Of a stretch of 64,000 nucleotides of DNA, positions 19,262-19,299 are shown one piece after another (position 1 is the first letter of the stretch; each line of letters opens with the position of its first letter). The notes under the pieces are model-generated. The model was given only the letters and a program-made list of their open reading frames with translations, was not told the origin of the DNA and did no database searches. A program made the translations under genes and the position numbers. The stretch comes from Minisyncoccia bacterium. Its GTDB lineage: Bacteria; Patescibacteriota; Minisyncoccia; 2-02-FULL-40-12; IGHO2-01-FULL-4-A. The DNA lies in the NCBI GenBank assembly GCA_050015375.1, contig JBEKBN010000004.1, positions 15,188-79,187 on the forward strand, in the 5' to 3' direction.

Positions 19262-19299
19262 GCATGTAGATATCCACCATATGGTGGATATCTACATGC
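19262..19299. repeat. Perfect 38-bp palindrome between the tandem GT39 genes
   Basis: gcatgtagatatccaccat|atggtggatatctacatgc has no mismatch. No U-tract follows on the minus strand. Confidence 0.9.

What the first reader, a model, noticed from the sequence alone, without database searches (positions are those of the whole stretch)
19262..19299. Perfect 38-bp palindrome separating two paralogous GT39 glycosyltransferase genes
gcatgtagatatccaccat|atggtggatatctacatgc has 19-bp arms and no mismatch. It lies 2 nt after the upstream gene stop and 19 nt before the downstream ATG. On the transcribed minus strand no U-tract follows, so it is not a typical intrinsic terminator. A perfect palindrome of this length is more typical of a dimeric regulator operator, a site-specific recombination site, or an RNase III processing hairpin that separates two cistrons.
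Basis: seen in the sequence. Interest (0 to 1): 0.5.

Follow-up and report, generated by a model that had tools for sequence, protein, structure and literature searches.

The report
Young hairpin insertion between two glycosyltransferase genes
A perfect 38-base palindrome sits between two membrane glycosyltransferase genes of an uncultured Patescibacteria bacterium; it is real, but it is a recent single-copy insertion found only in this species, and most likely just forms an RNA hairpin inside the operon's transcript, so it is fairly ordinary.

Summary
Positions 19262-19299 form a perfect palindrome with 19-bp arms and no loop. It lies 2 nt after the TAG stop of gene A (19302-20861, minus strand) and 19 nt before the ATG of gene B (17452-19242, minus strand). 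No U-tract follows it. It is not an assembly artefact: it appears in other assemblies and in a strain about 4.5% divergent.

It is single-copy. No further copy or half-site turned up in the window, 650 kb of related loci, JGI metagenome contigs, viral contigs, phages or plasmids.

It is species-specific. About 20 other Paceibacteria lineages keep the same A-B pair. Most have spacers of -11 to +18 nt, including the closest relatives at 70-74% identity. The palindrome is therefore a roughly 38-nt insertion into an ancestrally tightly coupled bicistron.

My best reading is a young inverted duplication, probably made by template switching. It puts a very stable stem-loop (-31 to -35 kcal/mol) into the A-B mRNA, where it would act as a decay barrier or processing and uncoupling element. 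A neutral mutational scar is the main rival. The operator, recombination-site, repeated-element, origin and canonical-terminator readings are not supported.

Two further lineage-specific perfect palindromes lie in the same window, one inside a conserved coding motif. These suggest a palindrome-generating process in this lineage.

The parts
19262..19299 (-). Perfect 38-bp palindrome (19-bp arms, no spacer). In RNA it forms a 17-bp stem with an AUAU tetraloop.
   Evidence: The core alone folds at -30.9 kcal/mol.
19248..19311 (-). Composite stem-loop. An outer helix (AAUUAGU 19307-19301 pairing with ACUAAUU 19257-19251, plus AGA/UCU) stacks on the palindrome across a 1x4 internal loop. The outer 5' arm includes the last codon and TAG stop of gene A.
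   Evidence: MFE -35 kcal/mol, z-score -7.6 to -8.7, and 0 of 200 shuffles fold as well. The outer helix is weaker in strain L005.
19243..19261 (-). 19-nt AU-rich unstructured spacer between the hairpin and the start codon of gene B. It carries no Shine-Dalgarno motif, like most genes in this window.
   Evidence: It is identical in strain L005.
19302..20861 (-). Gene A, the upstream cistron: 519-aa GT-C glycosyltransferase (Pfam PMT_2).
17452..19242 (-). Gene B, the downstream cistron: 596-aa GT-C glycosyltransferase (Pfam PMT_2/PMT).
19239..19280 (-). 13-codon upstream ORF (MVDIYMHRLISYK*). Its ATG is the central CATATG of the palindrome, and its TGA overlaps the ATG of gene B (ATGA). This is probably fortuitous; my rough estimate of the chance is 0.15-0.2.
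   Evidence: Read directly from the sequence and inferred only.
16729..17055 (-). Conserved small ORF (108 aa) downstream of B on the same strand, probably the last cistron of the unit.
   Evidence: 34% identity, E 9e-12, to the ORF at the same position in relative L006.
16551..16577 (-). Canonical hairpin plus T-run terminator that probably ends the A-B-small-ORF transcription unit. It is bidirectional and also follows the FtsQ-like gene on the plus strand.

Best explanation
The palindrome is a young, species-specific, single-copy insertion into the very short spacer of an ancestrally tightly coupled two-gene glycosyltransferase operon. It most likely arose in one step through replication template switching (snap-back inverted duplication), a process known to create perfect zero-spacer hairpins. 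The insertion is transcribed as part of the A-B mRNA, because there is no promoter-like site and no canonical terminator between the genes. The mRNA therefore carries a very stable stem-loop: 17-19 perfect base pairs plus about 10 outer pairs, starting 2 nt after the stop of A and ending 20 nt before the start of B. Any function would be at the RNA level. The stem-loop would block 3'-to-5' exonucleases, and possibly serve as an RNase III substrate. It would also break the termination-reinitiation coupling that the ancestral -11 to +18 nt spacers allowed. Together these would favour A over B in expression. What is shown: the palindrome exists and is perfect; it is single-copy; it is absent from all relatives beyond the species; the A-B pair ancestrally had a short spacer; and the fold is strong. 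What is inferred: co-transcription, the template-switch origin, and every effect on mRNA decay or translation.
For: The A-B tandem is conserved in about 20 Paceibacteria lineages. Fifteen have spacers of 30 nt or less, and several have overlapping stop and start codons. The closest relatives have spacers of 16 nt (L006), 18 nt (L097) and 3 nt (the contig carrying P0005). Removing the 38 bp from the window leaves a 21-nt spacer at 19% GC, like the relatives' spacers, whereas the palindrome arms are 42% GC. The hairpin folds at -31 to -35 kcal/mol with z-scores of -7.6 to -8.7, and is the strongest 3'-end hairpin in the window. No minus-strand promoter-like site lies in 19243-19330, and no U-tract follows the stem. 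A canonical terminator follows the unit at 16551-16577, after a conserved small ORF. Two more perfect zero-loop palindromes occur in the window (arms of 15 and 13, and none with arms of 8-12), and both are absent from a 68%-identity relative. The one inside the DHODH gene converts a coding stretch with 8 of 15 complementary pairs into one with 15 of 15. This is the signature expected of template-switch arm homogenisation (PMC8794818, PMC5941160). Other lineages (L032, L041, L038, L021) independently expanded the same spacer with sequences that can fold. Intercistronic stem-loops that protect the upstream cistron and set the ratio between cistrons are well established (PMC5927463, PMC4423207).
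Against: There are no expression data, so co-transcription and any effect on decay or translation are inferred. There is no evidence of selection. The 36-bp core is unchanged in the 4.5%-divergent strain, but substitution-free runs of 100 nt or more are common in that alignment (11 in 4.6 kb), so this comparison is uninformative. No pre-insertion intermediate or donor arm was found, so inverted duplication cannot be told apart from insertion of the whole 38 bp at once. Absence from all other species means any function is dispensable for the operon.
Confidence: 0.5

Rival explanations
1. Neutral mutational scar. A template-switch or foldback-repair event inserted the palindrome, and it persists only because the spacer tolerates it. 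It has no measurable effect on expression of A or B and will decay over time.
For: It is confined to one species, and all other lineages do without it. No constraint is detectable between the two strains. The outermost pair and the outer helix already differ between strains. Two other perfect palindromes in unrelated contexts in the same window point to a mutational process rather than a locus-specific function.
Against: A -35 kcal/mol hairpin 2 nt after a stop codon and 19 nt before a start codon is unlikely to be physically inert in an mRNA. It predates the split between the two strains and keeps 36 of 38 positions perfectly paired. Two of the three palindromes lie at gene 3' ends.
Confidence: 0.3
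2. Non-canonical, U-tract-independent or factor-dependent transcription terminator or attenuator for gene A, with gene B expressed from its own promoter inside the 3' end of A. A TATAAT occurs about 75 nt upstream of the B start codon.
For: The strong hairpin starts 2 nt after the stop of A. A TATAAT hexamer lies at 19319-19324 on the minus strand, just upstream of the hairpin.
Against: This genome uses canonical hairpin+T terminators. No U-tract follows the stem (2 U in the first 8 nt). The scan finds no -35/-10 pair on the minus strand there. The TATAAT is coding sequence (I-I-M) and reads CATAAT in L005. The ancestral arrangement, with overlapping or 1-18 nt spacers, implies co-transcription.
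Confidence: 0.1
3. Operator: a DNA binding site for a dimeric transcription factor that regulates gene B or the operon.
For: Perfect dyad symmetry.
Against: At 38 bp it is much longer than usual operators, by general knowledge. It is not at a promoter. No regulator gene is adjacent. No second site, half-site or sub-motif enrichment appears in 64 kb. It is absent from all orthologous loci beyond the species.
Confidence: 0.05
4. Site-specific recombination site (dif/lox-like core, inversion switch or attachment site), or the end of a mobile or repeated palindromic element (REP or MITE type).
For: The palindromic architecture could hold two recombinase-binding arms around a CATATG centre.
Against: It is single-copy. 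The only double-arm hit to the 19-mer half-site in the JGI metagenome contigs is this locus, and the other 8 hits are unrelated single arms. There is no hit with 4 or fewer mismatches in 650 kb of related loci. Nothing was found in viral contigs, phages or plasmids. The flanks are identical in all assemblies. No recombinase gene is nearby. There is no GC-skew extremum at 19 kb. A fully symmetric site has no directionality.
Confidence: 0.03
5. Assembly or amplification artefact.
For: De Bruijn assemblers behave oddly at perfect palindromes, and one Logan contig ends inside it.
Against: It is internal to long contigs with unique flanks in several assemblies from different pipelines. It also occurs in a distinct strain with 164 differences across the 4.6-kb alignment.
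Confidence: 0.01

Closest known systems
Intercistronic mRNA-stabilising stem-loops (malE-malF REP hairpin, puf operon decay terminator, protective structures in E. coli operons, and selective RNA processing and stabilisation in Clostridium cellulolyticum; PMC5927463, PMC4423207)
   Same: It is a stable stem-loop directly 3' of an upstream cistron inside a co-directional gene pair, with no U-tract. Its folding energy is in or above the range reported to skew transcript ratios.
   Different: No decay or processing data exist here. It is single-copy, perfect and species-specific, not conserved across related genomes as many E. coli protective structures are. The host is an SD-poor Patescibacteria genome whose RNase repertoire was not examined.
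Hairpins created or perfected by replication template-switch mutations (PMC8794818, PMC5941160, PMC5453318)
   Same: It is a perfect reverse-complement repeat with zero spacer that appears abruptly on one branch. Clustered multi-nucleotide differences occur at its edge between strains. A second palindrome in the same window was 'perfected' inside coding DNA.
   Different: The ancestral single-arm state was not observed, so the one-step origin is inferred. Insertion of the whole 38 bp at once cannot be excluded.
Rho-independent (intrinsic) terminators
   Same: It is a stem-loop immediately downstream of a stop codon.
   Different: It has no U-tract. The stem is 42% GC and far longer than usual. 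It sits inside an ancestrally coupled operon. Canonical terminators exist elsewhere in this window.
RNase III processing hairpins between cistrons (for example phage T7 early mRNA and rRNA operon stems; general knowledge)
   Same: With the outer helix it offers about 27-29 bp of nearly continuous duplex, which is long enough for RNase III.
   Different: Neither cleavage nor the presence of an rnc gene was tested. There is no conservation to indicate a dedicated processing site.

Membership tests
Intrinsic (Rho-independent) terminator | U-rich tract (at least 4-5 U in 8 nt) starting 0-2 nt after the stem | tested here: not met
   The tail is AUCGACUAAU, and the terminator scan does not report the site.
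Intrinsic (Rho-independent) terminator | Location at the end of a transcription unit | tested here: not met
   It lies between two genes that overlap or sit 1-18 nt apart in most relatives. A canonical terminator follows farther downstream at 16551-16577.
Repeated palindromic elements (REP/BIME, MITE-like) | Many related copies per genome | tested here: not met
   There is one copy in 64 kb even allowing 3 mismatches and no k-mer enrichment. The metagenome scan returns only this locus plus chance single-arm hits. The rest of the genome was not available.
Operator of a dimeric transcription factor | Overlaps or adjoins a promoter, with a cognate regulator gene or further sites present | tested here: not met
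   No promoter-like site. The neighbouring genes are bestrophin-like, VirD4-like, GtrA and DnaX. No further sites.
Operator of a dimeric transcription factor | Conserved at orthologous loci | tested here: not met
   It is absent from every A-B junction outside the species.
Tyrosine-recombinase core site (dif/lox type) | Partner site, or position at the replication terminus, with a recombinase nearby and rearranged variants present | tested here: not met
   It is single-copy. The flanks are the same in all assemblies. Cumulative GC skew keeps rising through 19 kb.
oriC / DnaA-box cluster | Cluster of DnaA boxes at a GC-skew minimum | tested here: not met
   The arms contain ATATCCACC, which matches the box at only 7 of 9 positions. 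Boxes across the window occur at chance level with no cluster at 19 kb.
Intercistronic protective or processing stem-loop | Stable stem-loop in the spacer of co-transcribed genes, 3' of the protected cistron | tested here: met
   Position. Stability (-35 kcal/mol, z about -8). Co-transcription is inferred.
Intercistronic protective or processing stem-loop | Differential stability or abundance of the flanking cistrons, or mapped 3'/5' ends at the hairpin | not testable with these tools
   No transcriptome data are accessible.
Template-switch-born hairpin | Perfect reverse-complement repeat that is absent in outgroups and appears on a single branch | tested here: met
Template-switch-born hairpin | Ancestral state containing one arm (the donor) reconstructed | tested here: inconclusive
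   No relative between 74% and 97% identity exists in the databases searched. No arm-like sequence occurs in related loci.
Known RNA families (Rfam 15) | Match at the gathering score | tested here: not met
   Only sub-threshold miRNA-type hairpin matches (24 bits against a gathering score of 80) were found at 19259-19302.

The most novel reading that the evidence does not exclude
This Patescibacteria lineage may carry an unusually active palindrome-generating process, such as snap-back template switching, perhaps linked to a reduced DNA-repair gene set. In this reading the process is creating perfect RNA hairpins de novo at gene boundaries. Three appeared in 64 kb since divergence from a relative at about 70% identity. 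One splits a formerly translationally coupled operon, and a 13-codon ORF starting at the palindrome centre and ending in an ATGA overlap could relay ribosomes to gene B. Another overwrote a conserved DHODH motif, with three amino-acid changes made to achieve 15 of 15 pairing. This would be a natural snapshot of regulatory hairpins being born in a bacterium that lacks Shine-Dalgarno signals.
Probability: 0.25. Interest if true: 0.5.

Novelty: new member of a known kind. Interest (0 to 1): 0.25.

Why it matters
If the hairpin alters the A:B ratio, it would be a datable example of an operon being re-tuned by a single mutational event in an uncultured, reduced-genome bacterium. Together with the two sister palindromes, it would support template switching as a practical source of new RNA structure in bacteria. 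If it is neutral, it mainly serves as a caution: long perfect palindromes can be young mutational products rather than binding sites, and they break short-read assemblies.

Tried and rejected
- **Rfam:** searches at gathering and E-value thresholds gave only sub-threshold miRNA-like hairpin hits.
- **Further copies:** searches for whole-palindrome and 15-mer half-site copies with up to 3 mismatches, and for 8-10-mer sub-motifs in the window, found nothing above chance.
- **Metagenome scan:** a 19-mer half-site scan of JGI metagenome contigs returned 10 stretches. Only this locus carries both arms, and the others are unrelated GC-rich coding contexts.
- **Mobile-element sources:** the 30-mer core in viral contigs and the 99-nt region against phages and plasmids gave no match.
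- **Donor arm:** a search of 650 kb of related loci with 4 or fewer mismatches gave 0 hits against 1.6 expected by chance.
- **Strain-level constraint test:** the core shows 0 substitutions against strain L005, but 100-nt identical runs are common in that alignment, so the test is uninformative.
- **Extra haplotypes:** two further cluster members (P0242, P0243) proved to be 3'-end fragments of gene B that do not reach the junction.
- **P0002 and P0005 contigs:** no DNA was available for either.
- **DnaA-box or oriC idea:** rejected.
- **dif or terminus idea for this site:** rejected on GC skew.
- **Own promoter for gene B:** the scan finds none, and the TATAAT inside gene A is not preserved in L005.
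- **Upstream ORF:** noted, but judged compatible with chance.

Full report
**Observation**

The sequence at 19262-19299 is GCATGTAGATATCCACCAT|ATGGTGGATATCTACATGC. It is a perfect palindrome with 19-bp arms and no spacer.

Two genes on the minus strand flank it. Gene A (19302..20861, 519 aa) ends with a TAG stop 2 nt from the palindrome. Gene B (17452..19242, 596 aa) starts 19 nt after it. Both are GT-C fold enzymes: both hit Pfam PMT_2, and B also hits PMT. NCBI names both 'glycosyltransferase family 39 protein' in a Minisyncoccia MAG. They are only distantly related to each other, at 27% identity over 164 residues.

Chance is excluded. No shuffle reproduces the palindrome. In 100 Markov simulations of the window, the longest perfect zero-loop arm was 12.

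An artefact of one assembly is also excluded. The identical sequence sits inside contigs from ENA ERZ27250144 and JGI 3300018005. A strain from JGI 3300038424 (L005), about 4.5% divergent across genes A and B, carries a 36-bp perfect core. A Logan contig stops 13 nt past the centre, which is what a k-mer assembler does at a perfect palindrome.

**Organism and context**

The best homologues of gene B are from Candidatus Yanofskybacteria and other Paceibacteria (Patescibacteria).

The window almost completely lacks Shine-Dalgarno motifs. Several start codons lie 6 nt after a TACAAT-like box, which suggests leaderless mRNAs. Canonical terminators (a GC-rich hairpin followed by a T-run) are present at the ends of transcription units, for example at 21726-21751 and at 16551-16577, which is bidirectional.

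The palindrome has no such tail, since AUCGACUAAU follows it. It is much longer and more AT-rich than those terminators. It is also the most stable 3'-end hairpin in the window. The core alone folds at -31 kcal/mol. With an outer helix (AAUUAGU/ACUAAUU plus AGA/UCU across a 1x4 internal loop) it reaches -35 kcal/mol, with z-scores of -7.6 to -8.7.

No sigma-70-like site is found on the minus strand between the genes. Downstream of B there is a small ORF (16729..17055, minus) that is conserved in a relative, followed by the canonical terminator. The likely transcription unit is therefore A, then the hairpin, then B, then the small ORF, then the terminator.

**Copy number**

- No other copy or half-site exists in the 64-kb window, even allowing 3 mismatches, and 8-10-mers from the palindrome are not enriched.
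- An exact 19-mer half-site scan of the JGI metagenome contig collection returned this locus, with both arms, plus eight unrelated single-arm hits in GC-rich coding DNA. That is about the number expected by chance.
- Nothing was found in viral contigs, phage records or plasmid records.
- Nothing with 4 or fewer mismatches was found in 650 kb of related loci.

The palindrome is not a member of a repeated element family.

**Comparative evidence**

A scan of species-representative genomes, together with look-ups of encoding contigs, gave about 20 further lineages in which orthologues of A and B are adjacent and co-directional.

| Spacer class | Loci or values |
|---|---|
| Overlapping stop and start | -11 nt (L066), -4 nt (L018, L019) |
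| Short, at most 30 nt | 1, 1, 2, 3, 5, 6, 12, 13, 17 and 30 nt (various loci) |
| Closest relatives (70-74% identity) | 16 nt (L006), 18 nt (L097), 3 nt (P0005 contig) |
| Next closest relative (61-64% identity) | 1 nt (L036) |

None of these carries the palindrome.

Removing the 38 bp from the window leaves TAG-ta|atcgactaatttcttataa-ATG. This is a 21-nt spacer at 19% GC, just like the relatives' spacers, whereas the palindrome arms are 42% GC. The ends of both proteins are conserved across the relatives.

The palindrome is therefore an insertion into the spacer on the terminal branch leading to this species. The ancestral arrangement implies co-transcription and probably translational coupling. 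In four other lineages (L032, L041, L038, L021) the same spacer has independently grown to 57-124 nt and can fold, most strongly in L032 at -46 kcal/mol. This junction evidently tolerates such inserts, or benefits from them.

**Is it under constraint?**

Between the window and L005, the core 36 bp and the 19-nt spacer after it show no substitution. Third codon positions of A and B differ by about 10%. However, identical runs of 100 nt or more are frequent in this mosaic alignment, with 11 in 4.6 kb, so the comparison says nothing either way.

At the left edge, three of four adjacent positions differ between the strains. The differences change TAG to TAA, remove the outermost G-C pair, and shorten the outer helix in L005. 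A clustered change of this kind is itself typical of template-switch events (PMC5453318).

**A class of palindromes in this lineage**

The window contains exactly three perfect zero-loop palindromes, with arms of 19, 15 and 13, and none with arms of 8-12.

The 30-bp palindrome at 58185-58214 lies inside the dihydroorotate dehydrogenase gene. It encodes the conserved C-terminal motif DGFSNIAEAV, 21 nt before the stop codon, at a convergent gene junction. In a 68%-identity relative the orthologous 30 nt (DGFNNISEVV) have only 8 of 15 complementary pairs. So in this lineage synonymous and non-synonymous changes together made the segment perfectly symmetric. By my own codon-count estimate, the chance of this given the peptide is roughly 1e-5.

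The 26-bp palindrome at 55134-55159 lies in a 392-nt gap upstream of an OmpR-type response-regulator gene. The relative has a 160-nt gap without it.

Perfect hairpins with arms of at least 13 and loops of at most 6 are about four times denser in this window than in 700 kb of related loci. That enrichment is modest.

These observations fit the published model in which template switching creates perfect stems in one event and corrects imperfect inverted repeats to perfect ones (PMC8794818, PMC5941160). They argue that the 19262 palindrome owes its perfection to how it arose, not to a need for a 38-bp symmetric protein-binding site.

**Mechanism**

I commit to an RNA-level reading. The insertion is transcribed within the A-B mRNA and folds into a stem-loop of about 27-29 bp. 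The stem-loop begins 2 nt after the stop of A, and its outer helix includes that stop codon. It ends at position -20 relative to the start of B, which leaves the AU-rich initiation region of B free.

By analogy with the malE-malF, puf and pap operons and with genome-wide studies (PMC5927463, PMC4423207), a structure of this kind would do three things. It would block 3'-to-5' exonucleases and so protect the A segment once the B segment is cut. It is long enough to be an RNase III substrate. It would also interrupt the termination-reinitiation coupling that the ancestral spacers permitted. The expected net effect is more A than B. All of this is inferred.

A 13-codon ORF starts at the central ATG and ends in an ATGA overlap with the start of B. 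It could in principle relay ribosomes to B, but its existence is compatible with chance.

**Rivals**

- **Neutral scar:** this is the main rival, at about 0.3.
- **Factor-dependent terminator with an internal promoter:** possible but unsupported, because the TATAAT inside gene A is coding sequence and is not preserved in L005.
- **Operator, recombination site, repeated element, oriC or DnaA site, and artefact:** each fails one or more defining tests (see the membership table).

**Novelty and score**

This is a new, lineage-specific instance of a known kind of feature: an intercistronic stem-loop and perfect inverted repeat of probable template-switch origin. It is not conserved, and no function has been demonstrated, so interest is low to moderate at 0.25.

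The more interesting possibility is that this lineage is actively generating perfect hairpins, including inside conserved coding sequence. I rate that at about 0.25 probability, with an interest of 0.5 if true.

Noticed in passing
window 58185-58214: A 30-bp perfect zero-loop palindrome (GACGGCTTCAGCAAT|ATTGCTGAAGCCGTC) lies inside the DHODH gene and encodes the conserved motif DGFSNIAEAV, 21 nt before the stop codon, at a convergent gene junction. In a 68%-identity relative (L100) the orthologous 30 nt pair at only 8 of 15 positions. The symmetry therefore arose in this lineage, with three amino-acid changes.
   Followed up: partly
window 55085-55175: A 26-bp perfect palindrome (GTCCCTCCGCAGG|CCTGCGGAGGGAC, 55134-55159) sits next to a second hairpin (about 55090-55120) in a 392-nt gap upstream of an OmpR-type response regulator and histidine kinase pair. 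Together they fold at -40 kcal/mol. There is no Rfam match, and the relative L100 lacks it. It also lies close to where the cumulative GC skew levels off (about 54 kb) and, from about 58 kb onward, genes lie mostly on the minus strand. This could mark a possible replication terminus.
   Followed up: partly
window 16542-17452: About 900 nt lie between the FtsQ-like gene and gene B. Gene callers placed a 167-aa ORF there on the plus strand with no Pfam hit. A 108-aa ORF on the minus strand (16729..17055) is instead conserved in relative L006 (34% identity, E 9e-12), so the published call is probably on the wrong strand. A perfect 15-bp stem-loop also lies at 16635-16668.
   Followed up: partly
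window, all gene starts: Shine-Dalgarno motifs are almost absent upstream of start codons. Several genes have a TACAAT-like box ending 6 nt before the ATG (for example 4546 and 55370, both with ATTGCTACAAT), which suggests leaderless mRNAs.
   Followed up: no
window 28161-28921: A tRNA-Gln(UUG) gene at 28846-28921 overlaps the 3' end of a 249-aa ORF (28161..28910) that has no recorded Pfam hit.
   Followed up: no
L032 604-727; L041 3890-3946; L038 3882-3955; L021 2243-2315: In four other Patescibacteria lineages the same A-B spacer has independently expanded to 57-124 nt and can fold. L032 has a 15-bp outer stem enclosing two small GC hairpins (-46 kcal/mol), while L021 folds only weakly (-13 kcal/mol). 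This looks like recurrent gain of structure at this junction.
   Followed up: no
L027 2352-2389: A 38-nt near-palindrome (18-bp arms, 2-nt loop, ATCAATATTATAACATAA|AGTTATGTTATAATATTGAT) containing TATAAT on both arms lies just upstream of the gene A orthologue in another Paceibacteria MAG. Its sequence is unrelated to the palindrome studied here.
   Followed up: no
L002 end (11272); contig of P0002: The Logan contig ends 13 nt past the palindrome centre. Perfect palindromes of this length fragment short-read assemblies, so such features are probably under-reported in MAGs. The contig of the 74%-identity relative P0002 starts 74 nt upstream of gene B, but its DNA could not be retrieved.
   Followed up: partly
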